Shown: one piece after another, positions 3,788-18,362 of the stretch
Position numbering within the stretch: the first letter of the stretch is position 1
Layout of the letters: each line of letters opens with the position of its first letter
From: Promethearchaeota archaeon
GTDB taxonomy: Archaea; Asgardarchaeota; Lokiarchaeia; Sigyniarchaeales; SOKP01
Direction: 5' to 3'
Length of the DNA: 48,773 nt
NCBI GenBank assembly: GCA_016839745.1
Contig: JAEOTS010000026.1
Span: 1 to 48,773 of the forward strand
The notes under the pieces: model-generated
Databases searched by the model: none
What the model saw: the letters and a program-made list of their open reading frames with translations, nothing else
Told to the model about the DNA's origin: nothing
Position numbers and translations under genes: made by a program

Positions 3788-6682
3788 ATGGAAGAAAAAA
3801 CAGAAGAAAAGATCAAAATAATCCTCAGCGGTATGACTTGTGCCTCCTGTGCTCTAAAGATAGAAACAAAATTGAAGAGTTTAGATGGTGTAAGTAGCTC
3901 AGTCGTAAATTTCGCTAATGAAGAAGCCACCGTTGAATATAATTCAAGCAAAATTAGTTATGACGATTTTAATAAGGCAGTCAAAGATTTAGGATATAAA
4001 GCAAGCTTAGCTAAAATTGACTATAAATTAACAGATTCTATTTCAGAGTCAGAGTTCAATAATCTAGTAGATGATTTTAAAAATATTGAAGGTATTTATG
4101 AAGTAAGAGGGAATTTTAAAGCTAGTAAATTATTTATTGAATTTAATGAGTTAAAACTTGATGAAAGTAAGCTATATTCGATAGTCAAGAAATTAGGGTA
4201 TAAAATTGAAAAAGCTGCAGGAGCTCTTGATAAAGAAATTGAAAGACATAAAAAAGAGATGAGATATCGATTAAAGATCCTGCTCATTTCACTAGCATTT
4301 ATGGTTATTATCACACCAATAAGTTGGTTCGTAGCTGAATCTTACATTAGGAATGTATTTTTATTCTTTTTAGCGTTGATTGATTTTAGTATCGCAGGTT
4401 CCTTCTTTCTTATTGGTGCTTATAAATCGTTAAGAAATAAATCAACTAACATGGATGTTTTAGTTGCTTTGGGAACTACAACGGCTTTAGTATATTCTAT
4501 TTTGACTACATTTTTAATTGATGGCAAGACATTTTATGAAGCAATGAGTATGATACTTGCTTTCCTTTTAATTGGCAAGTATTTTGAGCATAAAACTAAA
4601 GGACAAACTTCAGAAGCGATTAAAAAGCTTATTGGGCTACAACCCAAGACAGCAACTCTTTTAAAAGATGGAATAGAAATCGAAATCCCAATAGAAGAGA
4701 TCGAGGTTGGAGACATTTTAGTTGTTCGACCTGGGGAAAAAATTCCGATTGATGGGAAAGTAGTTAAAGGAAAAACAAAAGTCGATGAATCAATGATTAC
4801 TGGAGAAAGTAAATATGTGAAAAAAGAAATTGAAAGTGAAGTAATTGGTGCCACATTGAATCAAACTGGGTTAATTAATATCACAGCGGAAAAAATAGGG
4901 AAGGATACATTTTTATTTCAAATAATTAACTTTGTAAAGGAAGCCCAAAGTAAAAAAGCGGCGAAACAACTATTAGCAGATAAAGTTAGCAATTATTTTG
5001 TTCCTGCGGTTATTGTTATTGCTACTGGAGCGTTCTTATTTTGGTATTTTATAGCAGGTATAGGATTAGAATTATCTCTATTAGTTTTCACATCAGTTGT
5101 TGTAATCTCATGTCCATGTGCTCTCGGTCTAGCGATCCCTACTGCTGTCATGGTAGGTACTGGTAAAGGTGCTCAAAATGGAATTTTATTAAAAGGTGGG
5201 GATTCTTTAGAAGCAATTAGTAAAATTAATACAATTGTTTTTGATAAAACTGGGACCTTAACTATAGGGAAACCAAGAGTTTCTGCAATTTTTACTGAAA
5301 AAGATTTGAATGGCAACGGTTATGACGAAGAACAGTTATTATTCTATGCTGGAAGTGCTGAAATGGGTTCTGAACACCCTCTTGGACAAGCAATCATTGA
5401 AGAAGCAAACCAAAGAGGTTTAAATCTTGAAATTCCTACTGAATTTGATGCCATACCTGGGAAAGGGATTAAGACTAATATTAAAAATAATACTGTTCTC
5501 ATAGGAAACGAGCAGTTAATGGTAGATTATAACATTCCAATTGATTCTTATAATGTAAAATTTAATGAATTTCAAAGACAAGGAAAAACAACAATTTTAA
5601 TTAGCGTTGAAAATGAGATTAAGGGAATTATTGGAATTTCGGATAAAATGAAAGAACAAGCTCCGTATGCTTTAAAGAAGTTGCGTGAGAAGGGTTTGGA
5701 AATTTTTATGATAACAGGGGATAATAAGCAAACTGCCATAAATATTGGTAAAGAGCTAGGATTTGACGAGCAACATATATTAGCAGAGGTTTTACCGAAC
5801 GAAAAAGCTGAAACTATTAAACAATTACAAAATTCCCCAGAAATTAACATTGTTGGTATGGTTGGGGATGGGATAAATGATGCTCCTGCTCTAGCTCAAG
5901 CCGATGTTGGAATTGCAATCGGGTCTGGAACGGATATTGCGATTGAAACCGCAGATATTGTATTAATGAGAGGAGATCTCCGCAATGTTGTTTCTGCAAT
6001 TAATTTATCTAAAAAAACTTACAAAAAAATGCTCACGAATTTGTTTTGGGCTTTTATCTACAACATTATTGGAATTCCGATTGCTGCGGGAGTTCTTTAT
6101 TATGGAACTGGATTCTTTTTACCTCCCTTTTTAGCTGCTATTTTTATGGCGTCAAGCTCCGTTTCTGTTGTCACTAATGCGCTTTTCTTGAAAAGATATG
6201 AACCAAAAACGCCTCAACAAATAGAAGAAGAAAAACTCTTAATCTCTCAAGAAAAGGTTGTCGATCCTGTGTGCGGTATGAAAATCGATCCGAGACGCGC
6301 ATTAGAATATGAATATCAAGATAAAATTTATCACTTTTGCAGTGCTAACTGCGAAACTCATTTCAAACGAGATCCAGAAAGGTTTAAAAACTACGATAAA
6401 ATGGATCCTAAGTTAATGCAAATGAAGATTAGTGAAGAAGAATTAAAAAATGCTGAAGATCAGGAAATTATTCAAGAAATCAATACAATTAAAGAAGAAA
6501 AAGAGGTAGAAAAAAAAATGGGGAAATTAAAATGTGTTGAATGTGGATTGGAGCAAGATTTACCTATGCATTGTGGACAAGCAATGCATCAAGAAGGAGA
6601 CCAATTAGTTTGCTGGATGGGAGCCTCTTGTGGAGCTCAATCAATCCCAGAACATCACGGTAAAACCATGGAAATTGTTTAG
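3788..6682 (+). CDS. copA: Copper-translocating P1B-type ATPase with N-terminal HMA, C-terminal YHS/TRASH and extra Cys/His-rich tail
   Basis: GMTCASC, TGES, CPCALG, DKTGTLT, SEHPLG, GDGINDAPAL, YN and MASSS Cu(I) signatures; DPVCGM...FCS..C YHS domain. Confidence 0.95.
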   Translation: MEEKTEEKIKIILSGMTCASCALKIETKLKSLDGVSSSVVNFANEEATVEYNSSKISYDDFNKAVKDLGYKASLAKIDYKLTDSISESEFNNLVDDFKNIEGIYEVRGNFKASKLFIEFNELKLDESKLYSIVKKLGYKIEKAAGALDKEIERHKKEMRYRLKILLISLAFMVIITPISWFVAESYIRNVFLFFLALIDFSIAGSFFLIGAYKSLRNKSTNMDVLVALGTTTALVYSILTTFLIDGKTFYEAMSMILAFLLIGKYFEHKTKGQTSEAIKKLIGLQPKTATLLKDGIEIEIPIEEIEVGDILVVRPGEKIPIDGKVVKGKTKVDESMITGESKYVKKEIESEVIGATLNQTGLINITAEKIGKDTFLFQIINFVKEAQSKKAAKQLLADKVSNYFVPAVIVIATGAFLFWYFIAGIGLELSLLVFTSVVVISCPCALGLAIPTAVMVGTGKGAQNGILLKGGDSLEAISKINTIVFDKTGTLTIGKPRVSAIFTEKDLNGNGYDEEQLLFYAGSAEMGSEHPLGQAIIEEANQRGLNLEIPTEFDAIPGKGIKTNIKNNTVLIGNEQLMVDYNIPIDSYNVKFNEFQRQGKTTILISVENEIKGIIGISDKMKEQAPYALKKLREKGLEIFMITGDNKQTAINIGKELGFDEQHILAEVLPNEKAETIKQLQNSPEINIVGMVGDGINDAPALAQADVGIAIGSGTDIAIETADIVLMRGDLRNVVSAINLSKKTYKKMLTNLFWAFIYNIIGIPIAAGVLYYGTGFFLPPFLAAIFMASSSVSVVTNALFLKRYEPKTPQQIEEEKLLISQEKVVDPVCGMKIDPRRALEYEYQDKIYHFCSANCETHFKRDPERFKNYDKMDPKLMQMKISEEELKNAEDQEIIQEINTIKEEKEVEKKMGKLKCVECGLEQDLPMHCGQAMHQEGDQLVCWMGASCGAQSIPEHHGKTMEIV

Positions 6683-6714
6683 TAAGTTAAACTTAAATAA
6701 GGTGATTTTAAGAA

Positions 6715-6897
6715 ATGGAAACCTATAGATGTACTGGTTGTGGAAAAATAATGGAAACTATTCCACAATGTTGTGCCCAAGATATGGTTTATAATGAAGA
6801 TAAAAATCAACTTGAGTGCTATATGGGCGACAACTGTGGATACTTAAGCTTATCTGAACTAAAATGCGAAGAATGTTGCAAAAAACTAAAACAATAA
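6715..6897 (+). CDS. Small Cys-rich metal-binding protein, paralogous to the CopA C-terminal tail
   Basis: 60 aa with 9 Cys; SD-like AAGGTGAT upstream; aligns with the last ~54 aa of CopA. Confidence 0.75.
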   Translation: METYRCTGCGKIMETIPQCCAQDMVYNEDKNQLECYMGDNCGYLSLSELKCEECCKKLKQ

Positions 6898-6928
6898 TTT
6901 TTTTTCTCTTTAATTAATACAAAATTTA

Positions 6929-8212
6929 TCACGTTTTATCAGTAAGACTTCTTGGCTTAAGCCAAATTTCTAACACTAAAAAAATAAATAATCCTATTCC
7001 TGTTATCAAGGCTCCTACAATAAAAGCGGTTTGATATGATAAAACTTCCTCTAGACCACTGTTGAGTAAAATGTCTATTATAGGACCCGATATGATCGTA
7101 CAAGCTAATCCCCAGGAAAGAAAAAATGTCATATTATATACTCCAAATAATTTTGCCCTAACTTTGGAAGGAATCAAGTTAGATGCAATAACATAAGAAG
7201 CTGCATAAATAATAACTTCACCCATACCAATAAAAAAACTTCCAACAAATATCAATATTAAATTATCAGTTAATCCTGTAATAATTAACGCGAAGATAGC
7301 TAAATTCACACCTAATACTAGAGTTCGAGAATGACCAAACTTTTTGCTTAAAGTACCTGCTAAAAAACCAATAGTTAGAACTGCTAACGACCGAGTGTTG
7401 GCAATATAACTCAATAATATGCTATCCACCGAAAATCCAGTCTCTAAAGTCAAAAATTGGCTATAAATCGTCGCGATCGAATTACGTCCAAAATTAATAA
7501 ATGTTAAAGAAATAATGAAAACAATGAAAATAGTTTTAAAATTGAAGTTTTGTGGTGTATTATTGTTAATTACCACTTCTTTTTCTTTTTCAGATTCAAT
7601 CCCTCCCTCTGGGGCGAAAATCATAGGAATAGAAGAAATAAACATAACCAGTGCTGCTACAAAAAATAATGGTCCATCACGAAAACCATAACCGTAGTTG
7701 TAAAGTATTCCTCCTATGGATATACCTATGATCCTTCCAAAACCCCCTACGCTAGTTAATTGCCCCATAACTTTGCTTCTATCTTTAGAAGGATATATAT
7801 CGCTAATGAGAGCACTCCAACTAATGTTGGACATTGACCAAAAAGCTTCAATACATATTAATCCGATAATAATAACGTATCCCGCAAGTAATAAACTAGA
7901 AAAAATTGAGTGAACAAACCAAACTGTAATTGTTCCAATCCCGGCTAAGACTTCACCCAAGATAATCAATGTTCTCCTTCTTTGAAATTTGTCGCTTAAA
8001 GGCCCCCAAACAAAGTTTTGAAAAACCACGCTCATAATCATAGGAAGTGTTGCGTACAGTGTTGTTTCAGTGACGGATAAAAGCAAGAAATCTCTCATGT
8101 AAATAGATAAGTAGGTGTAAAACATACCCCGTCTAAACATCGCAAGAAGTTGGAACGAGGATAAGCCTATAAAAGTGCTCCTCAAGGAGTACTTTGCTTT
8201 TTTAACTGCCAT
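6929..8212 (-). CDS. MFS transporter
   Basis: About 12 TM helices; motif A GPLSDKFQRRR and GTLSKKFGHSR. Confidence 0.9.
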   Translation of the reverse strand: MAVKKAKYSLRSTFIGLSSFQLLAMFRRGMFYTYLSIYMRDFLLLSVTETTLYATLPMIMSVVFQNFVWGPLSDKFQRRRTLIILGEVLAGIGTITVWFVHSIFSSLLLAGYVIIIGLICIEAFWSMSNISWSALISDIYPSKDRSKVMGQLTSVGGFGRIIGISIGGILYNYGYGFRDGPLFFVAALVMFISSIPMIFAPEGGIESEKEKEVVINNNTPQNFNFKTIFIVFIISLTFINFGRNSIATIYSQFLTLETGFSVDSILLSYIANTRSLAVLTIGFLAGTLSKKFGHSRTLVLGVNLAIFALIITGLTDNLILIFVGSFFIGMGEVIIYAASYVIASNLIPSKVRAKLFGVYNMTFFLSWGLACTIISGPIIDILLNSGLEEVLSYQTAFIVGALITGIGLFIFLVLEIWLKPRSLTDKT

Positions 8213-8221
8213 GATTCTAGG

Positions 8222-10543
8222 TTAGAGATAAACATCGACATCTTTTTTAGGGAATGAATTAATAATCTTCAATAGCCCTGTTCCAGTCTTTAATTTTTCA
8301 ACTTCCTCAGCATATATAGGGTAGTAATTGTTAAAAATCTTGTATACACTATTCCATGACTTTTGCTCTTCAGTTTTCTCTCCTATCTCTTTCCTAAGTT
8401 TAGAAAAAATGGCTTTAGCTTTTTTACGATTTAAAAATTTGACAAAAATCTTGATTACTTTAATCTTAATTTTCTTGTAAACTTCCGGTCTAAAATTAGC
8501 AAGTGCATAACTTAAATCGTCATCTGCAATCGGAAAAAAGTTTATTCTTCTGTCTTCAGGTTCGTCGGGATTTTTAATTAAATCTAGTTCTATATCTCCT
8601 TCACTGATGTTTTCTAATATTGGATAGAGTTGACCTGGAGTAATTCTTGTTTCCATTTGAATTTCAGAAGCAATTTCTGAAATCGAATAATTGAAGTCAG
8701 GGTATTTTTCTGGATTTTCAATTCGGTAAGTGTATTCGTTTTTTAGTATTTCCAGAATTGCATTTTTTAACGAGCTCGGGATTTCTTTTTGAATAAAAGA
8801 GATTGAAATATCTTTCTGTTTTTGTTCAAACGATAACTCGTCCTTTTGTTTCTTTGTATAATCAGTAGCAAGAGAGGATATAAATTTATCTGAAGCTTTA
8901 TCATTATCAGCACTGACTTTCAAATCAAGTTTCTTAGGCTTCTTCGAAGTCATCGTGCTGTAAAGTCTATCTGATAGATATTTTTTCGCTTTTTTCTGAG
9001 CGATGGCTTTTTTATCAAATTTTTCAAGAACCGAAGAAAAATCTACAATCTTTTGTAACCTTCCGTTTTGATCTCTTTCTTCTGTTAGGCTAATATTCAT
9101 GTCTATATTCGCTAAATCCTCGATTAAAGAGTAGATGTTGTTTTTCGAGAGTCGCGTTGCTCTTATTAACTCACGCTCTAAAATCTCAAGTGGATAACCT
9201 GCTCCTCTGCGTAAATATTCGCTTCTTATTAACTTATAAATTATATCCATACTTTTTTCTTCTTGATTAATCGTTTCTTTTTGTAAACGTATAAACATCG
9301 AGGTTTCGTGTGGTTTTAAATAATAAAATAGCAGAGTACTCCCAAGGAATATAATCATTATTATAGAAACAATATACTTATCTGCCATGAAGAACTGGCC
9401 TAGTAAAGTAACTTCTTGATTTGGTAACTGAGATTGTAACGCAAAACGAGTGAGTGTTTGAGCAAGGACACACCCTAGTATTAGCAATATTAAACCATCT
9501 CTTTTAAAAATAATAAATCTCCATTCTAAAGAACGACCTAATTTTTTTATAATTCTATATAAGAAATACATTGAAAAAGCAAATTCAATAATAAAGATAA
9601 ACCATACTGTCGAACTACTTGCTCCAACTGTAGCTTTTAATGCTGTGACAGTAGCAGGATTTAATATTAAAAACAAGGTTAATTGAAATACCTGAAAGAA
9701 AAAAATGAATAAAACTATCAATGAAAAAGTATAATTGTCAAACAGTCCTGCCCGTTTTGTCTCAGCTCTCCGTCTCGTAAAAACAAACTCAAAAATAATA
9801 AATAACAATGTTAATATTAAGCTAAAATAGATCAATGGCATAATCAAACGCATTTCTAATACATAAACTCCTACTGCTTCACTAGGGGCAGAAGGTCCTA
9901 GAAAATCTAGTGATATATAAACTAATAAACTTCTGTAAAACAGTGCTATTACAATCAATACTCCTAATATAAAATATGGAGAGATAAAAGCAATATATCT
10001 ACGCACTGACGAATATTTAGTTATGAAGCGTGCTTCAATTTTTGTCGCAAACTTTCTTGAATACATAAAAAACCTAGTACTCAATAAAATAAGCCATATT
10101 GTTGATAAACCTAAGAGATAACTTATGAAATTGATACTAAGGTTATTAATGAATATAAAGAGCAAGTAGAACCCGGAGATAATACTTAAATATAATACAA
10201 CTTGTTTTATTATTGAATTTTTCTCAAAAATGAAAACTCTGATCTTATCATTGCTGTATAGTATGGATAATGCAAGAAAAAAAGCTACTAATGCGTTTCC
10301 AAATGCAAAAGGATTTCCAAAAGTTAGAATATTTAGGTAAGTACCGGGAAAATTAATCCCTATTAAAATCAAAAATGAATAGATTAAAAATATAACATAT
10401 AATCCAATGAACTTCCTTTCTCCAAAATACGATTTTGATGGTTGTTGTCCCTCTACATATAAATCATGTACGAATATTTTTCGAATATTCTGCTGAAGAG
10501 ATTTCTTGATTTTTACGATATTTTCTTTAGCTTTCATTTTCAT
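8222..10543 (-). CDS. Polytopic membrane protein with soluble C-terminus containing two winged-helix-like repeats
   Basis: About 410 aa hydrophobic N-terminal half (~10-11 TM); repeats IIYKLIRSEY...YPLEILERELIRATRLSKNNIYSLIEDL and AILEILKNEY...YSISEIASEIQMETRITPGQLYPILENI. Confidence 0.6.
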   Translation of the reverse strand: MKMKAKENIVKIKKSLQQNIRKIFVHDLYVEGQQPSKSYFGERKFIGLYVIFLIYSFLILIGINFPGTYLNILTFGNPFAFGNALVAFFLALSILYSNDKIRVFIFEKNSIIKQVVLYLSIISGFYLLFIFINNLSINFISYLLGLSTIWLILLSTRFFMYSRKFATKIEARFITKYSSVRRYIAFISPYFILGVLIVIALFYRSLLVYISLDFLGPSAPSEAVGVYVLEMRLIMPLIYFSLILTLLFIIFEFVFTRRRAETKRAGLFDNYTFSLIVLFIFFFQVFQLTLFLILNPATVTALKATVGASSSTVWFIFIIEFAFSMYFLYRIIKKLGRSLEWRFIIFKRDGLILLILGCVLAQTLTRFALQSQLPNQEVTLLGQFFMADKYIVSIIMIIFLGSTLLFYYLKPHETSMFIRLQKETINQEEKSMDIIYKLIRSEYLRRGAGYPLEILERELIRATRLSKNNIYSLIEDLANIDMNISLTEERDQNGRLQKIVDFSSVLEKFDKKAIAQKKAKKYLSDRLYSTMTSKKPKKLDLKVSADNDKASDKFISSLATDYTKKQKDELSFEQKQKDISISFIQKEIPSSLKNAILEILKNEYTYRIENPEKYPDFNYSISEIASEIQMETRITPGQLYPILENISEGDIELDLIKNPDEPEDRRINFFPIADDDLSYALANFRPEVYKKIKIKVIKIFVKFLNRKKAKAIFSKLRKEIGEKTEEQKSWNSVYKIFNNYYPIYAEEVEKLKTGTGLLKIINSFPKKDVDVYL

Positions 10544-10703
10544 CGTATAAGTAAGTTTCTTGAGGGGAAATGTTTTGTTAAAAAAAAAATTATTATTTTT
10601 CGTATATGTTTAGAGAGAAAAATAGTTATTTATTCTTAATACTTTTCTAGATTAAATCGATTTTGTTGCTTAAAATTTAAAAGGACTCGATAATAATATT
10701 ATA

Positions 10704-10991
10704 ATGCACATGGAAAATCAGCCAGAAAAACCAGACAAAGAAACCTTGATAAACCTTGTCAAGCAAGGAATTGAAATGTTAGCTGAAAAGAACATTTCAA
10801 ATGTAATAATTTTATCCTCTTACAAAATTAATTCAGTTTTAAAAGATAACTACGGAGTAGACATTAAAGTCGATAGAATTGGGAGAATTTTAAGTACAGT
10901 AGCTAAAAATAATCAATTAAAACGTCTTGGTACTAACATCCCCAAATACAAGTTACAGATATCGAAAGTTTCGGGACTTCAATATTATTAA
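10704..10991 (+). CDS. Small hypothetical protein, probable winged-helix fold
   Basis: Helix-strand-helix-turn-helix-hairpin pattern (LSSYKINSVLKDNYGVDIKVDRIGRILSTV...KRL...KYKL). Confidence 0.55.
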   Translation: MHMENQPEKPDKETLINLVKQGIEMLAEKNISNVIILSSYKINSVLKDNYGVDIKVDRIGRILSTVAKNNQLKRLGTNIPKYKLQISKVSGLQYY

Positions 10992-11083: not shown

Positions 11084-12466
11084 TTATTTCTTAACATTCC
11101 TGAAATCTGGAATTATAGATTGAAGTCTTTCTATTAATTCTTCAAGCTCGACGAAGTCATTATTAAATTGTTCGAGTTCTGAAATTATTTTATCATAATT
11201 AGTACTTAAATTTAATTCAAAGGGGTGATTTATAGCACTAATTCCTTTTAACATGTCAATCGAGAGATTTTCGATTAGATATGTCAAATTGGAGATTTGA
11301 TTGGTTGAGTTCTCTATTCTTTCTTTTATCTTTTTATCTTGCATTGAAAGTTCATACAATTTATTAATGGTTTCATTAAGATCTTTCTTTATAGATTGAG
11401 AGATAGATTCGATGCTCTGCTCTAAGTTTTTATTAATTTCACTTGCTAAACTTTCTTTAATCTTGTCTGTATTAGTTTTTAATTCTTCTTGGCCTTCAAT
11501 ACGCTTCTTTATGTATCCCTCTATTTTCCCTTTATATTCGTCAATCCTTTCTTTAAAATTGATATCTATCCATTTTTCTACTTTTTCAAAACCATGATTT
11601 ATTGCCAAGTTCATATGTGCAAGAGAATCGCTAATTCTATTTAGACCTATTAGTGCTCCATCGTTAAATTCCATAGACCATGCTTCTAACTCCGTTTTGT
11701 AATTATTCAAGACTAAGTTAGAAAAATTTTGAAGTCCTTTCTTTACTCCTTCTACAACCGGTTCAATATTAGGATATTTTAATTCGATATCAGAATCCAA
11801 TTGCTCCACAGACAAAGGAATTTCTTGAAGATCGGGAGGAGTTTGATCGTTCATCTCTAGTTTCTCTCGAATTATTATTGGGTTTTTTGTTTGACCATAT
11901 TCGACGAGTTTTTGGACCCACCTATAAAAATCTAAAGATTTGGGTGCTTCTATTTCATATTTAACTTTAATAGTGTTACTTTTTTCTCCCTTTTTGGGAT
12001 CTTCTAGTCGAAAGACTTCCAAACCGAAATTACTCCCTTTTTGAAGTTTGGAATGATCAAAAACAATTCCAAAAGCACTGGGAATTTGTTCATTCTGAAA
12101 ATAAAGATGATTTTTTTTGTCAACATCAGAAAAGAAAATCGATTTGCTGTCAGGATGACTGTGGTACCACCCTAATAACTCAAAATTCTCATTTTCAGCC
12201 TCTTCTTTAGTTTGTACTAGAACCTTATGAACTTTTTCGGAAAATCCTAATTCAACAGTGTCACCATGAGTTACAGGAATAGCTCGGCTTACATTAATAT
12301 TGTTATTATTAGGATCTCTACTGCCTAGGCAAAATCCCAAAACTTGATCATTATAATCTAGTGAAATATTGGCAAACCTTAAGACATGTGAAAGCATGTC
12401 TTTGAACGCGCTCATCTTTATGAAAATATTTCCGTTTTCACTCGCTACTTTTTTGTTGTCAGTCAT
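11084..12466 (-). CDS. MPN/JAB1 domain protein with long C-terminal coiled-coil; catalytic Glu replaced by Gln
   Basis: DQVLGFCLG (Q at the Glu position), AIPV, GWYHSHPDSKSIFFSDVD, GIVFD; heptad-rich helical tail of ~230 aa. Confidence 0.85.
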   Translation of the reverse strand: MTDNKKVASENGNIFIKMSAFKDMLSHVLRFANISLDYNDQVLGFCLGSRDPNNNNINVSRAIPVTHGDTVELGFSEKVHKVLVQTKEEAENENFELLGWYHSHPDSKSIFFSDVDKKNHLYFQNEQIPSAFGIVFDHSKLQKGSNFGLEVFRLEDPKKGEKSNTIKVKYEIEAPKSLDFYRWVQKLVEYGQTKNPIIIREKLEMNDQTPPDLQEIPLSVEQLDSDIELKYPNIEPVVEGVKKGLQNFSNLVLNNYKTELEAWSMEFNDGALIGLNRISDSLAHMNLAINHGFEKVEKWIDINFKERIDEYKGKIEGYIKKRIEGQEELKTNTDKIKESLASEINKNLEQSIESISQSIKKDLNETINKLYELSMQDKKIKERIENSTNQISNLTYLIENLSIDMLKGISAINHPFELNLSTNYDKIISELEQFNNDFVELEELIERLQSIIPDFRNVKK

Positions 12467-12468
12467 TT

Positions 12469-13923
12469 TTAATCAGTACCTCCTTTTTCAAGTTCTTTAA
12501 TTTTCGATAAGAGTAGTTTTTTTTCTGATTCTAATTTATCAATCTTATCAAAAATAGGAGTTTTTGTGCCTTCCAAAATTAACACTGCTGCTTTCAAGTT
12601 AGTTAAGAATTTCTGCGACTTTTTATTTAGATCAGTAAGAAAATTTAATGCCTTACTCTGCTTCTTTGACGTAACATCGGATGTTTCTTTTTGCATCTTT
12701 TTTATTTTTTCAAGAGTTGTTTCCTTTATAGAGTTGATTTTTTCTGATAAGGAGTTTAAGGAGGTTTCAAGTTTTTCCAAATTATCTAAATTAACTGAGA
12801 TATTACTATTGAAATCTACTATTTTCTTATGACATTCGTTATAATCTCTTGAAAAATCGCTTTTTAATCCATCAAACTTTTCTTTAAATAATCTACTTAC
12901 TTTCTCTTCGACGATTTCTTTTATTTCATTTAAAATAGTATTAATTTCTCCCTGATACACATCGATTTGGTCTAAAAAATCGTCAACAAAGCCTTCTGCA
13001 TTAAATAATTCTGCGTTTAAATCATCCTTATATTTCCTTTGTATTTGGTCTATTCCTGAGTTTATTAGTTCTTTTAGCTGATTTAAATTTGTACTAATTT
13101 CTATATTATGATTTTCAATATCTCCTGAAATATTTGTGCTGATGGAATTAAGGAAATTTATTAAAGGGGTAAGAGACAAATCTAAAAAATTTGCGAGACC
13201 TAATTGAAATGATTCTATAACCTTACGCTGATCGATTGCGGGTTGTTTAAATTGTAATTGGTTTAGTTCAGGAACTTTTACATCCCCGAATATATCAGCG
13301 GTCTCATTTTCTTCCGTTATGGGAGGTTCTTTTGTATGAACACAATTAATTAATTCAACTATTTTAAAATAATAATCAAGGCTATCTGGGGGTTCTACTA
13401 TCGTTGTAACTTGATGAAAACTTGAATCTCTGATGTCTGTAGGGTTGGTTAAACGGATTGCTCTAAATCCTGGATCATTAGGGCTATCCAAATAAGCGTG
13501 ATCAAACACTAAAGCTATTCCACTAGGGTTCAATTCGTTTTGCCATCCAAATTGATTCTTAACATCGGTCGGTGAAAAGAAAATTTTGTGCTGGAATAAA
13601 TCGGGGTGGCTATGATACCAACCAACCATGAACCAATTTTTTTCTAAATACATGGAATTGGCTTTTTCAAAAAAGATATAATCATTAATTGAAAATTCAA
13701 CTTCTACACTACTTCCGTGCGAAATAGGTACTACATCCTCCACTACGACATTCTTAAATTTTTTATCTTCGCCATCTTCGAGATGTCCAATGAGAACACC
13801 CATAACTTCAATACACTGAGAGTGATTTCTAGCTTTATTTCCAAAACGTAAGACATGTAGAATTATTTTATAATAAGCATCAGGTTTAATCTTTACTACA
13901 CTATTATCTACATCTTTCCCCAT
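12469..13923 (-). CDS. MPN/JAMM (Rpn11/CSN5-like) metalloprotease with long C-terminal coiled-coil
   Basis: IEVMGVLIG, GWYHSHPDLFQHKIFFSPTD, ALVFD; ~250-aa helical tail; stop is 2 nt from the next start. Confidence 0.9.
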   Translation of the reverse strand: MGKDVDNSVVKIKPDAYYKIILHVLRFGNKARNHSQCIEVMGVLIGHLEDGEDKKFKNVVVEDVVPISHGSSVEVEFSINDYIFFEKANSMYLEKNWFMVGWYHSHPDLFQHKIFFSPTDVKNQFGWQNELNPSGIALVFDHAYLDSPNDPGFRAIRLTNPTDIRDSSFHQVTTIVEPPDSLDYYFKIVELINCVHTKEPPITEENETADIFGDVKVPELNQLQFKQPAIDQRKVIESFQLGLANFLDLSLTPLINFLNSISTNISGDIENHNIEISTNLNQLKELINSGIDQIQRKYKDDLNAELFNAEGFVDDFLDQIDVYQGEINTILNEIKEIVEEKVSRLFKEKFDGLKSDFSRDYNECHKKIVDFNSNISVNLDNLEKLETSLNSLSEKINSIKETTLEKIKKMQKETSDVTSKKQSKALNFLTDLNKKSQKFLTNLKAAVLILEGTKTPIFDKIDKLESEKKLLLSKIKELEKGGTD

Positions 13924-14172: not shown

Positions 14173-14817
14173 TTAATGCGGCAGAGGTTTTCCGCAGTAT
14201 GGACAGAATTTCCATCCTATATCTTTTCCACAATGAGGACAGAATGTCGAGGTTTCGACTCCCTCTCCTTTTGGAATTTGTGGTAACTCTCTTGTTGTTT
14301 TTATTGTAGATGGAGACGGTTGTTCCACACGCACTCTCTCTTCTTCCTTTTTGAATTTCATTCTTTCTTGGAACGCTTGACGTTTTTCATCATCCATCTC
14401 TTGAACCGATTTCATTCCCTCTTCCTTAACCCATCCTTTTACCACAGGTCTTTTTAGTTCGCTAACAGGAACCTTCTCTAACTCCACTTTTTTAGCTTCG
14501 GAAATGGGAGCTACAACTTTCTTTTCTTCCCTCTTGGTAATAGCTTGTTTAGTTAAGGCTTGAGTAGTTTTCATAATTTGGTGAGGATTAATATTTGGAA
14601 TTGCTACTGTCCTTAATACCCAACCCACGATGAGATTTTGATTAGGGAAACCAGAAGCACTCAAATCTTCATCCTTATAAACATATGACTCTATTAAAGA
14701 GTTTCCTTTTAGCAAACGAGAAGCCCACTTGCCGTTTATAAGCCCTAGCTGAATTCTATATGATGTCCCGGGGATTCCTAATTGGCTACTAAGGGGTTCA
14801 AATCCTTTTTCAGAAAT
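14173..14817 (-). CDS. Hypothetical protein with charged linker and C-terminal double zinc ribbon
   Basis: Ends FCPHCGKDIGWKFCPYCGKPLPH. The frame is open upstream of TTG 14715 (SEKGFEPLSSQLGIPGTSYRIQLGLINGKWASR); start placed at ATT 14817 behind GAGTTGAT. Confidence 0.7.
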   Translation of the reverse strand: MSEKGFEPLSSQLGIPGTSYRIQLGLINGKWASRLLKGNSLIESYVYKDEDLSASGFPNQNLIVGWVLRTVAIPNINPHQIMKTTQALTKQAITKREEKKVVAPISEAKKVELEKVPVSELKRPVVKGWVKEEGMKSVQEMDDEKRQAFQERMKFKKEEERVRVEQPSPSTIKTTRELPQIPKGEGVETSTFCPHCGKDIGWKFCPYCGKPLPH

Positions 14818-15073: not shown

Positions 15074-16024
15074 ATGACGGTTTTTATTCCGAAGGAAGTT
15101 TACTTAACTACCGTTGCTGCCTGTGTTAGATTTGCCAATCAACGTATCGATAAAGACGATTGGCTTGAGGTTTCAGGTATCTTCATTGGAAAAAATGAAG
15201 GAGAAGATGTATATATAACAAAATCATACCCAATAATGCATCAAGAATTAGATAGAGACGCTGTAATTGATCAATATAAATGGAGTGACGAAGATTATGA
15301 AGCATTATATATTATTGATGAAGAGGCATTTTCAAAGGGAGAATTCACCGTTGGTTGGTGGCACAGTCATCCAGGTTTCAAGATTATGATGTCACATATT
15401 GATATTAAAACAACTTTAAGTTACCAAACTAATAATACTCTTGCTATCTCATTGGTTTTTAATCCTGAAAGGTTAGTGAGACAAATTGAACTTCCTATTA
15501 AAAAAGGAGATCCCGTTAAACAATTAGATGGCGATCCCGGGTTTAAGATCTTTAGATTAGATGATGTATCTAAAGGAATTCAAGCTTCATACCATACTGT
15601 AGAATATGTTATTAAAGGCTATGAAAACCAAGAACAAATAGTCCCATTAACACAGAAATTCATTATCGACATCACGAATATGTTCCCAAAAGAAAATATA
15701 TTTGAAACCTACGAAAAATTCATAACTGATCGAATCAGCGAGCTAAATTCGTTATTACAAGGAACTGATGAATATTTAAACACATTAATAAGAAAAGGAG
15801 AATCTGGTAGGATTCATGAAGTCCTAGAAAATCAAACTCGAGACATTCGAAAATATGTTGCTGAAACTTTTATAAGAATAGAAAATATTAAACAATTCAT
15901 GAATTACTTAGAATTTAAAGAGAGAAATATGATTATACCTAAAATTGAAGAGATATTATCTCAATGGGATGAAACTGTAGCAAATTTAAACGCAAAACTA
16001 ACTGAAATAGCTAAAAAATTTTAA
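15074..16024 (+). CDS. MPN/JAMM metalloprotease with C-terminal helical bundle
   Basis: LEVSGIFIG and canonical H-x-H-x7-S-x2-D (GWWHSHPGFKIMMSHID), ISLVFNP. Confidence 0.9.
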   Translation: MTVFIPKEVYLTTVAACVRFANQRIDKDDWLEVSGIFIGKNEGEDVYITKSYPIMHQELDRDAVIDQYKWSDEDYEALYIIDEEAFSKGEFTVGWWHSHPGFKIMMSHIDIKTTLSYQTNNTLAISLVFNPERLVRQIELPIKKGDPVKQLDGDPGFKIFRLDDVSKGIQASYHTVEYVIKGYENQEQIVPLTQKFIIDITNMFPKENIFETYEKFITDRISELNSLLQGTDEYLNTLIRKGESGRIHEVLENQTRDIRKYVAETFIRIENIKQFMNYLEFKERNMIIPKIEEILSQWDETVANLNAKLTEIAKKF

Positions 16025-16154: not shown

Positions 16155-18362
16155 ATGCGTAAAGCTCAATTTCCATTTGTTGCTATTTTAGGACAAGATA
16201 GGATGAAACTCGGACTCATATTGAATGTAATTGATCCCCAAATCGGTGGAGTTTTGTTAACTGGTCAACAAGGCACTGGAAAATCAACGGGAGTTCGCTC
16301 TCTCGTAGAAGTTATGCCTGATATTGAAATTGTTAAAAATTGTCAGTTTTCGTGCAATCCAAAATCTCATATTGATGATCTCTGCATAGAATGCCGCGTA
16401 AGAAAAGAAAAGGGGGAATTAGAAATAGAATTTAAGGAAATGCGTCTAATTAATTTACCATTAGGAGTTACAGAAGATATGGTAACAGGATCTCTCTCTA
16501 TTGATAAGGTCTTAACTGAAGGGATCAGGAGTCTTCACCCTGGACTTCTCGCTAAAGCTAATCGTGGTATCCTTTATATCGATGAGATAAATTTACTCCA
16601 AGATCATATAGTCGATACCTTATTAGATGCTTCTGCTTCTGGTGTGAATATTATTGAAAGGGAAGGAATCTCGGTTATGCATCCCTCTCGGTTTATATTA
16701 GTGGGCAGTATGAACCCAGAAGAAGGCGATCTTCGCCCACAAATAGCTGATAGACTAGGTTTAGAGGTAAAAATAAAAGCTCCACGAGATGCAAAACTAC
16801 GAGCTGAAATCACAAGGAGAGTTATAGATTTTGACGATAATCCAAAAGCATTCATTAAAAAATACGAGCAAGAACAAGAAGAGCTAAGAAAAAAAATTGT
16901 AAGGGCGCGTGAATTGATTAAGAGTGTCAAAATTCCTTCCTCAGTTTATGAATTTGTCTCTAGATTAGTTAACGAATTGGATATTTTTTCACAAAGAGCT
17001 GATATAACATTTATCAGATGTGCTCGTGCCCACGCTGCTCTTCATGGAAGAACTGAAGTTGTAGAAGAAGATTTAAACGCAGCAATGGATTTAGTTTTCG
17101 AACACAGAATAAAATCGCTCCATTATGAAATGACCCCACAAGAAGTCAAGGCAAAAATAGTCGAAGTGTATGGAAAGATACAAAAAGCCTACGAAGATCC
17201 AAAAACCTATAGGCCAAATAAAGAAACTGAAGGACCTTTAAAGCACGATGATACTCCCCAAAAGGAATTCAAGCGTCAATCTGTTGATCCTAAAAAAGTC
17301 GATATTCCAGAAACTAAAGAACAAAAGCTACCTCCCCCTAAATATCCCGACAACAAGAAAAGAACTCCCTCACCTGCTGGAGGCTGGAAAGTAAAAGATA
17401 TACCAGAATATGACGAACGAGAATTCAATTTTTTTGAAAATGGAATTGAATCGCTACCATTAATTTACCAAATGGAAACAAAAATGACTTCTGTATTAGA
17501 TACAATTAGAAAAGATAGAAAAGTTTCCGATTATGGCGGTAGGGGAATTGGAAGGCGCATAAAAATCGCTTCTTCTCAAAAAGGTAGGTATGTCTCATAC
17601 AGAAGGCCGCTTAATCGTCCTAAAACTATTGCTCTCGATGCAACAATACGGAGTTATTTAAAAAATACAATTTTCAACCAGACGGATATAGAATTTCCAA
17701 TTAAATTTAATAAATATGATTTAATGGATAAAATTTACGAGTATCGAGCTCCCCTAGTGCTTTTTTTCGTTCTCGATAGCTCAGCTTCAATGTATTATGT
17801 AATCAAACAAATGACAGATGTTATTCTTTCTCTCCAGCGAGAAGGTTACAGAAAAAAAGATAAGCTAAGTTTAATTATTTTTAGGGCAAAAGAGGCAGTT
17901 GTTCTTCAAAAACCTACGGTTTACTTCAAATCTGCCGTTAACAAACTCAAAAAAGTTGAAGGAAAGTCTTATACCCCTATGGCCGCAGCGTTGACAAAAT
18001 GCTTAAAGTTAATTGACGCTGAAAAATTAAAGAATAGAAACATAATTCCGGTTGTTTTCGTCTGTAGCGATATGGGAGCAAATATATCCTATAAATATCC
18101 TGACTTAATCGCTCAAGTCCAAACAGATTACACTTTAATTGTTAACGAATTAAAAGCTTTGACAAAACAATTATCTAAAAAAGGAGCACATATGGTGGTG
18201 TTAGAACCGAAGAAATCATATGCAACTAGGGCTTTAGGAGTAAATACCTTTGCTGCTGACAAGATTAAAAAGAATTTTAAAAAATACGGAAGCGCTGAAA
18301 TATTCCAATTCGATAGGGTTAATCCAAAAAACTTAATTTTAGAACTGAAAAAAATACTTTAA
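16155..18362 (+). CDS. AAA+ ATPase-vWA fusion (Mg/Co-chelatase ChlI/ChlD-like)
   Basis: FPFVAILGQD, Walker A GQQGTGKS, Walker B LYIDEINLL, GSMNPEEG, Pro/charged linker, MIDAS DSSAS, TPMAAAL, SDMGAN. Confidence 0.9.
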   Translation: MRKAQFPFVAILGQDRMKLGLILNVIDPQIGGVLLTGQQGTGKSTGVRSLVEVMPDIEIVKNCQFSCNPKSHIDDLCIECRVRKEKGELEIEFKEMRLINLPLGVTEDMVTGSLSIDKVLTEGIRSLHPGLLAKANRGILYIDEINLLQDHIVDTLLDASASGVNIIEREGISVMHPSRFILVGSMNPEEGDLRPQIADRLGLEVKIKAPRDAKLRAEITRRVIDFDDNPKAFIKKYEQEQEELRKKIVRARELIKSVKIPSSVYEFVSRLVNELDIFSQRADITFIRCARAHAALHGRTEVVEEDLNAAMDLVFEHRIKSLHYEMTPQEVKAKIVEVYGKIQKAYEDPKTYRPNKETEGPLKHDDTPQKEFKRQSVDPKKVDIPETKEQKLPPPKYPDNKKRTPSPAGGWKVKDIPEYDEREFNFFENGIESLPLIYQMETKMTSVLDTIRKDRKVSDYGGRGIGRRIKIASSQKGRYVSYRRPLNRPKTIALDATIRSYLKNTIFNQTDIEFPIKFNKYDLMDKIYEYRAPLVLFFVLDSSASMYYVIKQMTDVILSLQREGYRKKDKLSLIIFRAKEAVVLQKPTVYFKSAVNKLKKVEGKSYTPMAAALTKCLKLIDAEKLKNRNIIPVVFVCSDMGANISYKYPDLIAQVQTDYTLIVNELKALTKQLSKKGAHMVVLEPKKSYATRALGVNTFAADKIKKNFKKYGSAEIFQFDRVNPKNLILELKKIL

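What the first reader, a model, noticed from the sequence alone, without database searches (positions are those of the whole stretch)
11084..13923. Coupled active/inactive MPN pair resembling MPN+/MPN- heterodimers
Seen: 12469-13923 keeps the catalytic Glu (IEVMG) and H-x-H...S-x2-D. Its paralog starts 2 nt after the stop, with GGAGGT inside the upstream gene end. It has Gln at that position (DQVLG) but keeps the Zn ligands. Both have a lengthened loop (x10 and x8 versus canonical x7), a shared post-MPN segment (EPPDSLDYYFKIVELIN / EAPKSLDFYRWVQKLVE) and similar-length coiled-coils. Known: Rpn11-Rpn8, CSN5-CSN6 and BRCC36-Abraxas are enzyme/pseudoenzyme dimers joined through C-terminal helices. 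Inference: this is a prokaryotic enzyme-pseudoenzyme heterodimer from tandem duplication. Caveat: CAA is one base from GAA.
Basis: partly seen in the sequence, partly recalled or inferred. Interest (0 to 1): 0.8.

Follow-up and report, generated by a model that had tools for sequence, protein, structure and literature searches.

The report
Asgard active/dead MPN protease pair
Two back-to-back sister genes of a Loki-type Asgard archaeon encode deubiquitinase-like zinc proteases on long helical stalks; the first always keeps its active site and the second has lost it here and many separate times in relatives, an archaeal parallel to the 'enzyme plus dead twin' pairs of eukaryotes.

Summary
Genes A (12469-13923, -) and B (11084-12466, -) are Pfam JAB/MPN paralogs, 27% identical over 378 aa. 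They are separated by 2 nt, with GGAGGT inside the end of A. A has E39 and H104-x-H106-x10-S117-x2-D120. B has Gln41 (CAA) where the Glu should be, but keeps H-x-H-x8-S-x2-D.

Gln41 is not a sequencing error: 92 of 93 close metagenomic orthologs have Gln, encoded by both CAA and CAG.

On a tree of 67 A and 67 B proteins from one Lokiarchaeal family, A never changes any of the five catalytic positions. B changes them 29 times, is degenerate in 50 of 67 sequences in 15 different ways, and switches between intact and degenerate at least 8 times. B is still under purifying selection (dN/dS 0.12-0.26).

The genes lie within -8 to +17 nt of each other in 49 of 53 loci. Both stalks have a fixed, matching length (182 and 181 residues).

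So tandem duplication and a pseudoenzyme are well supported. Physical heterodimerisation remains an inference, because no multimer model could be run. The duplication is lineage-specific and not orthologous to the eukaryotic pairs. This scan has reported the same system in at least 8 other genomes.

The parts
12469..13923 (-). Gene A: MPN+/JAMM protein, 484 aa. MPN head about residues 9-175, post-MPN helix, about 50 aa of disordered linker, then a helical stalk of about 200 aa.
   Evidence: ORF. Pfam JAB 51 bits. Catalytic residues are intact in 67 of 67 tree rows and 108 of 108 metagenome orthologs. Architecture is taken from the model of an ortholog.
13807..13809 (-). A codon for Glu39, the catalytic Glu of the JAMM motif.
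   Evidence: GAA or GAG in all 58 A genes read at DNA level.
13564..13614 (-). A zinc site, H104-S-H106-x10-S117-x2-D120, with a 3-residue insertion relative to the canonical x7.
12467..12483 (-). Coupling junction: GGAGGT (12478-12483) inside the last codons of A, TAA stop, 2-nt spacer, then the ATG of B.
   Evidence: The gap is 2 nt in all 15 own-clade loci and between -8 and +17 nt in 49 of 53 loci.
11084..12466 (-). Gene B: MPN- (pseudo-JAMM) paralog, 460 aa, with the same architecture as A.
   Evidence: ORF. Pfam JAB 41.6 bits. AF2 model: MPN 9-172 at pLDDT 80-90, helix 179-191, linker 192-234, one helix 235-458. dN/dS 0.12-0.26.
12344..12346 (-). B codon CAA for Gln41, at the position of the catalytic Glu.
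   Evidence: Gln in 92 of 93 close orthologs, encoded by CAA 13 times and CAG 8 times in genomes.
12119..12163 (-). B retained zinc-ligand motif, H102-S-H104-x8-S113-x2-D116.
   Evidence: Kept in all 92 Gln-bearing orthologs.
11093..11764 (-). B stalk: one predicted helix of 224 residues (235-458), hydrophobic period 3.64, ending in the conserved motif ELEELIERLQ.
12559..13161 (-). A stalk (approximate limits): helix of about 200 residues, hydrophobic period 3.64, ending in the conserved motif LKAA..LEG.K.P.
14173..14715 (-). Context: zinc-ribbon protein directly upstream of A on the same strand, kept next to the pair in 8 of the family's 9 genera.
8222..10991 (.). Context: polytopic membrane protein of 773 aa (8222-10543, -) and a small 95-aa protein (10704-10991, +) directly downstream of B. 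Both are kept next to the pair in most genera of the family.

Best explanation
A and B descend from one old tandem duplication of a eukaryote-type JAMM/MPN isopeptidase gene inside a Lokiarchaeal (Asgard) order. They are made from one transcript in roughly equal amounts through translational coupling. The inference is that they assemble through their MPN heads, the conserved post-MPN helix and their length-matched stalks of about 27-33 nm into a hetero-oligomer. A is the zinc isopeptidase, most likely removing ubiquitin-like modifiers, which the genome encodes together with an E1. In this genome B is catalytically disabled because the water-activating Glu is Gln41. B is kept as a non-catalytic partner: a scaffold, an activator, or a binder of substrate or of the Ub tail, since it still has the zinc ligands. 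Shown here: paralogy, coupling, conservation, the asymmetric decay of B's active site, purifying selection on B, the MPN fold and the stalk architecture. Inferred: A's activity, its substrate, physical pairing, and what B does.
For: Paralogy and domains. Coupling junction. Gaps lie between -8 and +17 nt in 49 of 53 loci, and A and B are adjacent in 53 of 54 loci. The pair is found in 66 of 68 genomes of the family and all 9 of its genera. A's catalytic residues never change in 67 tree rows (total branch length 16.5) or in 108 metagenome orthologs. B changes them 29 times over a branch length of 21.9, with 50 of 67 degenerate, 15 degenerate patterns and at least 8 intact/degenerate switches. 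Gln41 is conserved in 92 of 93 close orthologs and uses both synonymous codons. B is under purifying selection, and its MPN head has about twice the dN/dS of A's head in 13 of 13 close pairs, while the tails are similar. Only B is degenerate among the genome's six MPN genes. B's modelled head matches EMC8/9 (Z 17-18), Rpn11 (16.9), archaeal CsRpn11 (16.6), BRCC36 (15.7) and CSN6 (14.7). The ortholog fusion model hits BRCC36, Rpn11 and CSN5 first. Stalk length is invariant and matched, 182 against 181 residues, with the same 3.64 periodicity. Ub-like genes and an E1-like gene are present in the genome. MPN- partners are scaffolds or activators of MPN+ enzymes in eukaryotes (PMC9313428), and KIAA0157 is required for BRCC36 activity (PMC4579573).
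Against: There is no direct evidence of A:B contact. The read-through fusion model had pTM 0.44, the same as B alone, and gave no coordinates. Both stalks are net acidic, so charge does not favour hetero- over homo-pairing. No natural A-B fusion was found among longer proteins, which is weak evidence. Of 67 B proteins 17, including the early-branching ones, keep the whole motif, so the pair existed for a long time as two intact enzymes and does not need a dead partner. One lineage nested among the Gln forms has Glu again (GAG). In this clade B keeps all zinc ligands, so residual or altered activity is not excluded. A's x10 spacing is non-canonical and its effect on activity is unknown. In one genome a 6-kb insertion separates A from B.
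Confidence: 0.6

Rival explanations
1. A and B are diverged paralogs that do not bind each other. Each forms its own homo-oligomeric stalk and has its own role. B would be a non-catalytic binder working independently, and adjacency simply persists from the duplication and shared regulation.
For: No pairing evidence could be obtained. A and B have different conserved C-terminal motifs. One genome tolerates a 6-kb insertion between them.
Against: Spacing suited to translational coupling is kept in 49 of 53 loci despite only 27% identity between the copies. Stalk lengths are matched and free of indels. Both genes are almost always present together. Repeated loss of catalysis in one copy only is the pattern expected when the other copy supplies the activity to a shared complex.
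Confidence: 0.22
2. B is still an enzyme in this genome. Gln41, or a neighbouring residue, supports hydrolysis or a different reaction, so the locus encodes two active JAMM proteins with different specificities.
For: B keeps H102, H104, S113 and D116 in all 92 Gln-bearing orthologs. 17 of 67 B proteins have the full motif. A Gln-to-Glu change appears inside the Gln clade.
Against: The Glu is part of the defining JAMM motif ExnHxHx7Sx2D, and MPN proteins lacking the motif are classed as non-catalytic (PMC9313428). Other B lineages have lost zinc ligands outright: second His to Arg, first His to Ile/Leu/Val/Ser/Cys, and Ser to Thr/Ala/Val/Arg/Asn. B's MPN head evolves at about twice the dN/dS of A's.
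Confidence: 0.12
3. The Gln is a sequencing or assembly error, or B is a decaying pseudogene.
For: CAA is one base from GAA.
Against: 92 independent metagenomic orthologs have Gln, encoded by both CAA and CAG. The reading frames of about 440-470 aa are intact in all loci read. dN/dS is 0.12-0.26.
Confidence: 0.01

Closest known systems
BRCC36-KIAA0157 (ABRO1) / BRCC36-Abraxas, the core of BRISC and BRCA1-A (PMC4579573)
   Same: An MPN+ enzyme and an MPN- paralog, each an MPN head followed by C-terminal helices. The dead partner is required for activity in the known system. BRCC36 chains are the first Foldseek hits of the ortholog model, with alignments that run into the helix, and B's head aligns to BRCC36 at Z 15.7.
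   Different: They are not orthologous: A and B are closer to each other (E 2e-37) than to any solved MPN protein (best E 3.5e-6 for A and 2e-3 for B). The archaeal stalks are about 200 residues with 3.64 periodicity, against a short helical bundle in BRCC36. The genes are operonic. B has lost only the Glu here and keeps the zinc ligands. No BRCC45- or MERIT40-like partners were seen.
Rpn11-Rpn8 (proteasome lid) and CSN5-CSN6 (COP9 signalosome)
   Same: Heterodimers of an active and an inactive MPN paralog joined by the MPN domains and C-terminal helices (PMC9313428). The fold matches at Z 16.9 for Rpn11 and 14.7 for CSN6. Rpn11 is also the best sequence match of A in the PDB.
   Different: The duplication is independent and lineage-specific: 66 of 68 genomes of one family, against 2 of 232 elsewhere in the phylum sample. 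No PCI-subunit context was seen. Long stalks replace the lid helical bundle. B's inactivation is recent and recurrent rather than ancient and fixed.
Caldiarchaeum subterraneum Rpn11-like DUB (CsRpn11; PDB 6FJV/6FNN; PMC6043591)
   Same: An archaeal, eukaryote-type JAMM that processes an archaeal ubiquitin. It is the best PDB sequence hit of A (E 3.5e-6), and B's head aligns to it at Z 16.6.
   Different: CsRpn11 is a single small protein in a Ub operon, with no paralogous dead partner and no stalk.
EMC8/EMC9 (MPN-like pseudoenzyme subunits of the ER membrane protein complex)
   Same: The top structural match of B's head (Z 17-18, rmsd 2.6-3.0 over 167-177 residues). Both A and B also hit Pfam UPF0172. 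EMC8/9 are non-catalytic MPN proteins in a membrane-associated complex, and the archaeal pair sits next to a polytopic membrane protein gene.
   Different: The Z values are tied with Rpn11 within about 1, and identity is 13-17%. EMC8/9 have no stalk and no active paralog partner. No relationship beyond the shared fold is shown.

Membership tests
JAMM/MPN+ metalloisopeptidases (gene A) | Pfam JAB (PF01398) above the gathering score | tested here: met
   51 bits against a cut-off of 22.5.
JAMM/MPN+ metalloisopeptidases (gene A) | All five motif residues present in order: Glu, His-x-His, Ser-x2-Asp (PMC9313428) | tested here: met
   E39, H104, H106, S117, D120. They are invariant in 67 of 67 tree rows and 108 of 108 orthologs.
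JAMM/MPN+ metalloisopeptidases (gene A) | Canonical x7 spacing between HxH and Ser | tested here: not met
   The spacing is x10 in this clade (77 orthologs), while 31 more distant A orthologs have x7. A therefore belongs by descent, but with an atypical loop whose effect on activity is unknown.
JAMM/MPN+ metalloisopeptidases (gene A) | Zinc-dependent isopeptidase activity | not testable with these tools
   This needs an enzyme assay.
MPN- pseudoenzyme partners (gene B) | MPN fold | tested here: met
   Model pLDDT is 80-90 over residues 9-172. Z is 15-18 to EMC8/9, Rpn11, BRCC36 and CSN6.
MPN- pseudoenzyme partners (gene B) | JAMM motif incomplete | tested here: met
   Gln41 replaces the Glu and is conserved in 92 of 93 close orthologs. 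Other B lineages have lost His, Ser or Asp.
MPN- pseudoenzyme partners (gene B) | Kept by selection despite loss of catalysis | tested here: met
   dN/dS is 0.12-0.26 in 13 close pairs. The ORFs are intact in all loci read.
MPN- pseudoenzyme partners (gene B) | Forms a heterodimer with an MPN+ paralog and supports its activity | not testable with these tools
   Only single chains can be folded. The fusion model was uninformative (pTM 0.44).
Eukaryotic pairs Rpn11/Rpn8, CSN5/CSN6, BRCC36/Abraxas (orthology) | A orthologous to the MPN+ member and B to the MPN- member of a eukaryotic pair | tested here: not met
   A and B are mutual best paralogs (E 2e-37), against E of 3.5e-6 or worse to any solved MPN protein. 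The two clades are sisters inside one archaeal order. No eukaryotic sequences were put in the tree.
BRCC36-KIAA0157 architecture | MPN domain followed by C-terminal helices that bundle with the partner's helices | tested here: inconclusive
   Both proteins have a conserved post-MPN helix and a long helix. Bundling with the partner could not be examined.

The most novel reading that the evidence does not exclude
The pair is a membrane-proximal deubiquitinase-like machine still turning into an enzyme/pseudoenzyme heteromer. A and B would stand on a rigid, length-conserved hendecad stalk of about 30 nm. The distal, motif-bearing ends of the stalk would dock onto the co-conserved polytopic membrane protein, the small winged-helix-like protein and the zinc-ribbon protein. 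In this clade B would be a zinc-bound, non-cleaving receptor for the Ub-like tail that presents substrate to A. If so, the route from two enzymes to enzyme plus dead partner, which is fixed and ancient in eukaryotes, could be studied step by step across living lineages.
Probability: 0.2. Interest if true: 0.85.

Novelty: new variant of a known kind. Interest (0 to 1): 0.66.

Why it matters
Enzyme/pseudoenzyme MPN pairs form the catalytic core of the proteasome lid, the COP9 signalosome, eIF3 and BRISC/BRCA1-A. In eukaryotes the dead partners are ancient, so how they arose cannot be observed. In this family of Asgard archaea, the closest prokaryotic relatives of eukaryotes, the same design arose independently and is still in progress. 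One copy is frozen as an intact enzyme. The other is intact in some lineages, has lost only the catalytic Glu in others, and has lost zinc ligands in others still. That provides natural intermediates for testing whether the dead partner becomes a scaffold, an activator or a receptor, and whether the loss is neutral or selected. I found no paper describing this pair in four full-text searches.

Tried and rejected
1. Heterodimer modelling. The structure tool takes one chain. In some relatives A and B are in frame, so I read the stop of the G007 pair through (TAA=Q) and folded the 964-aa fusion with 17 such natural read-through rows plus A-only rows. The result was pTM 0.44 with no coordinates or PAE, so it says nothing about pairing. 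The window's own pair is out of frame (2-nt gap) and could not be treated this way. In a first alignment, B-only rows were placed on the A half by MAFFT and were dropped.

2. Charge complementarity of the stalks. Both are net acidic (A -5.5, B -9.7 on average), so there is no signal.

3. Natural A-B fusions. None were found among proteins of 848-2420 aa, which is weak evidence.

The sequencing-error question was settled through orthologs instead.

5. ESM Atlas search with the stalk gave no usable hit.

6. The heptad coiled-coil assumption is rejected: power at period 3.5 is near background, and the peak is at 3.64.

7. Pfam hits of the tails to Apolipoprotein, V-SNARE and similar families are all far below their cut-offs. 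I read them as compositional or periodicity resemblance only.

8. A possible MIM-like reading of B's C-terminal ELEELIERLQ motif was considered by eye. It does not fit the consensus well and was not pursued.
Full report
WHAT IS THERE

The window comes from a 3.5-Mb, 192-contig assembly of about 31% G+C. Public names on near-identical proteins are 'Candidatus Lokiarchaeota' and 'Promethearchaeota archaeon'.

Two minus-strand ORFs fill the finding: A (12469-13923, 484 aa) and B (11084-12466, 460 aa). Both pass Pfam JAB/MPN, and both score much better on this eukaryote-type model than on Prok-JAB. They align at 27% identity over 378 residues (E 2e-37), well beyond the MPN domain.

A ends ...GGAGGT ACT GAT TAA. 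Two bases later B starts with ATG.

A carries E39 and H104-S-H106-x10-S117-x2-D120. B carries Gln41 (CAA, 12344-12346) and H102-S-H104-x8-S113-x2-D116.

IS THE GLU LOSS REAL AND CONSERVED?

Among 106 metagenomic relatives of B, 92 of the 93 close ones with a complete N-terminus have Gln at this position. In genome loci the Gln is written CAA 13 times and CAG 8 times. It is therefore maintained by selection and is not a base-calling error.

Among relatives of A, all 108 with a complete N-terminus have the full E/H/H/S/D set.

FAMILY-WIDE PICTURE

The pair occurs in 38 of 42 genomes of the genus and in 66 of 68 sampled genomes of the family, covering all 9 genera. Elsewhere it was found in 2 of 232 genomes from 29 other families of the phylum sample. 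A few genomes of sister families in the same order also carry it.

I extracted the two genes from 54 loci and built a maximum-likelihood tree, adding metagenome proteins. There are two sister clades, A and B, of 67 rows each (SH-aLRT 98 and 91), with one copy per genome in each. This points to a single old tandem duplication.

At the five catalytic positions A shows 0 changes over a total branch length of 16.5. B shows 29 changes over 21.9: Glu 4, first His 9, second His 3, Ser 9, Asp 4. Fifty of 67 B proteins are degenerate, in 15 different patterns. Examples are:
- Gln for Glu, at least three times independently
- second His to Arg
- first His to Ile, Leu, Val, Ser or Cys
- Ser to Thr, Ala, Val, Arg or Asn
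- one lineage with nothing left

B switches between intact and degenerate at least 8 times. Early-branching B proteins and several crown lineages are fully intact. The ancestral pair was therefore two intact JAMM proteins, and only the downstream copy decays, repeatedly.

One B nested among the Gln forms has Glu again (GAG, one base from CAG), with an intact A two bases upstream.

B IS NOT A DEAD GENE

In 13 close genome pairs dN/dS is 0.08-0.20 for A and 0.12-0.26 for B. The MPN head of B has about twice the dN/dS of A's head in all 13 pairs, while the tails are alike. Constraint on B's head is relaxed but still strong, as expected for a pseudoenzyme that keeps a structural role.

Among the six MPN genes of this genome only B is degenerate.

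ARCHITECTURE

AlphaFold2 of the window's B, with 55 aligned sequences, gives four parts:
- a confident MPN head, residues 9-172, pLDDT 80-90
- a conserved helix, 179-191, which is the 'shared post-MPN segment' of the finding
- a disordered linker, 192-234
- one uninterrupted helix, 235-458, pLDDT up to 93

A read-through fusion of the orthologous pair of another genome shows the same plan for both halves.

B's head aligns to EMC9/EMC8 (Z 17-18), Rpn11 (16.9), CsRpn11 (16.6), BRCC36 (15.7) and CSN6 (14.7), which are ties within about 2 Z units. The fusion model's first Foldseek hits are BRCC36, Rpn11, CSN5 and CsRpn11.

From a W-S anchor at the start of the stalk to the conserved C-terminal motif there are exactly 182 residues in A and 181 in B. 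This holds in every lineage where both anchors could be found, although the sequences are only 35-40% identical between clades. The stalks therefore behave as length-matched rulers about 27 nm long.

Their conserved hydrophobic positions repeat every 3.64 residues in both proteins, not every 3.5. That suggests hendecad-type, nearly straight coiled coils with a narrow seam of about 3 hydrophobic positions per 11.

EVIDENCE FOR PAIRING IS INDIRECT

A and B are adjacent in 53 of 54 loci. The exception has a 6-kb, four-ORF insertion between them. The gap is between -8 and +17 nt in 49 of 53 loci.

On the branch leading to the window's clade, A gained its 3-residue loop insertion and B its Gln. This is a single event, so it is only suggestive.

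Against pairing, or neutral to it:
- the fusion model's pTM (0.44) equals that of B alone, and no coordinates were available
- both stalks are net acidic
- no natural fusion was found

CONTEXT

Across the family's genera, most loci read zinc-ribbon protein, A, B, a small 95-aa protein on the other strand, and then a polytopic membrane protein of about 770 aa. A homolog of that membrane protein also lies two genes from the pair in another family.

Between clades these neighbours are 56-80% identical, while A is about 41% and B about 35% identical, so the pair evolves unusually fast.

The genome encodes ubiquitin-like proteins and E1-like enzymes elsewhere, which gives plausible substrates.

COMPARISON WITH KNOWN SYSTEMS

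The design is that of Rpn11-Rpn8, CSN5-CSN6 and especially BRCC36-KIAA0157/Abraxas: an MPN+ enzyme, an MPN- paralog, and C-terminal helices (PMC9313428, PMC4579573).

It is not orthologous to any of them. A and B are far closer to each other than to any solved MPN protein, and the duplication is confined to one Lokiarchaeal order.

The differences are the operonic arrangement, the very long hendecad stalks, the mild lesion in this genome (Glu to Gln with the zinc ligands kept) and the ongoing, recurrent nature of the decay.

Four literature searches found no description of this pair. This scan's notebook holds follow-up reports of the same system in at least eight other genomes with the same reading. 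My counts were made independently and agree with them.

VERDICT

- Observation: confirmed.
- Tandem duplication and pseudoenzyme status of B: well supported.
- Heteromer: likely but untested, about 0.65 on its own.
- Relation to eukaryotic pairs: an independent parallel.
- Class: new variant of a known kind.

Noticed in passing
window 8222-10991 and 14173-14715; loci L037-L050, L094-L105: A zinc-ribbon protein upstream of A, and a 95-aa protein plus a polytopic membrane protein of about 770 aa downstream of B, accompany the pair across most of the family's genera. The membrane protein's homolog (33% identity) is also near the pair in another family (G039). These are possible partners or an anchor of the complex.
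   Followed up: partly
window 16155-18362; L037 5261-7503, L042 0-1114, L043 3011-5250, L096 405-2642: In this window the AAA+-vWA gene is a single 735-aa ORF. In four related genomes it is split at the same place into ORFs of about 197 aa and about 490-530 aa. The cause could be a frameshift, an insertion or a real gene split; I did not examine it.
   Followed up: no
window 11084-13923 compared with its neighbours: Between clades of the same genus A is about 41% and B about 35% identical, while all flanking genes are 60-80% identical. The pair therefore evolves much faster than its surroundings, with a long shared branch leading to the window's own clade.
   Followed up: partly
L107 (G187:C10:45000-58000) 3820-9865: This is the only locus in which A and B are not adjacent. 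Four ORFs (174, 420, 297 and 336 aa; about 6 kb) are inserted between them, and both genes remain intact.
   Followed up: partly
L106 1426-2808 (protein P0078): A B ortholog nested inside the Gln clade has Glu (GAG) again at the catalytic position, with all other motif residues present. This looks like a one-base reversion.
   Followed up: yes
L045 6098-6838 (G039) and L101 1558-2163 (G318): An extra short MPN-like ORF (246 and 201 aa) lies directly upstream of A in two genomes.
   Followed up: no
G000 contigs C144 (74093-77522) and C93 (6610-6801): Ubiquitin-like ORFs lie here, one directly beside an E1-like (ThiF) gene. No JAB gene was found on C144, so the DUB that serves that cluster is encoded elsewhere.
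   Followed up: no
window 15074-16024: A third MPN gene (316 aa, canonical ExnHxHx7Sx2D) lies divergently 1.1 kb from A, next to the AAA+-vWA and ATP-grasp genes. It stays close to the pair in most but not all genera: it is absent from the g14 loci.
   Followed up: partly
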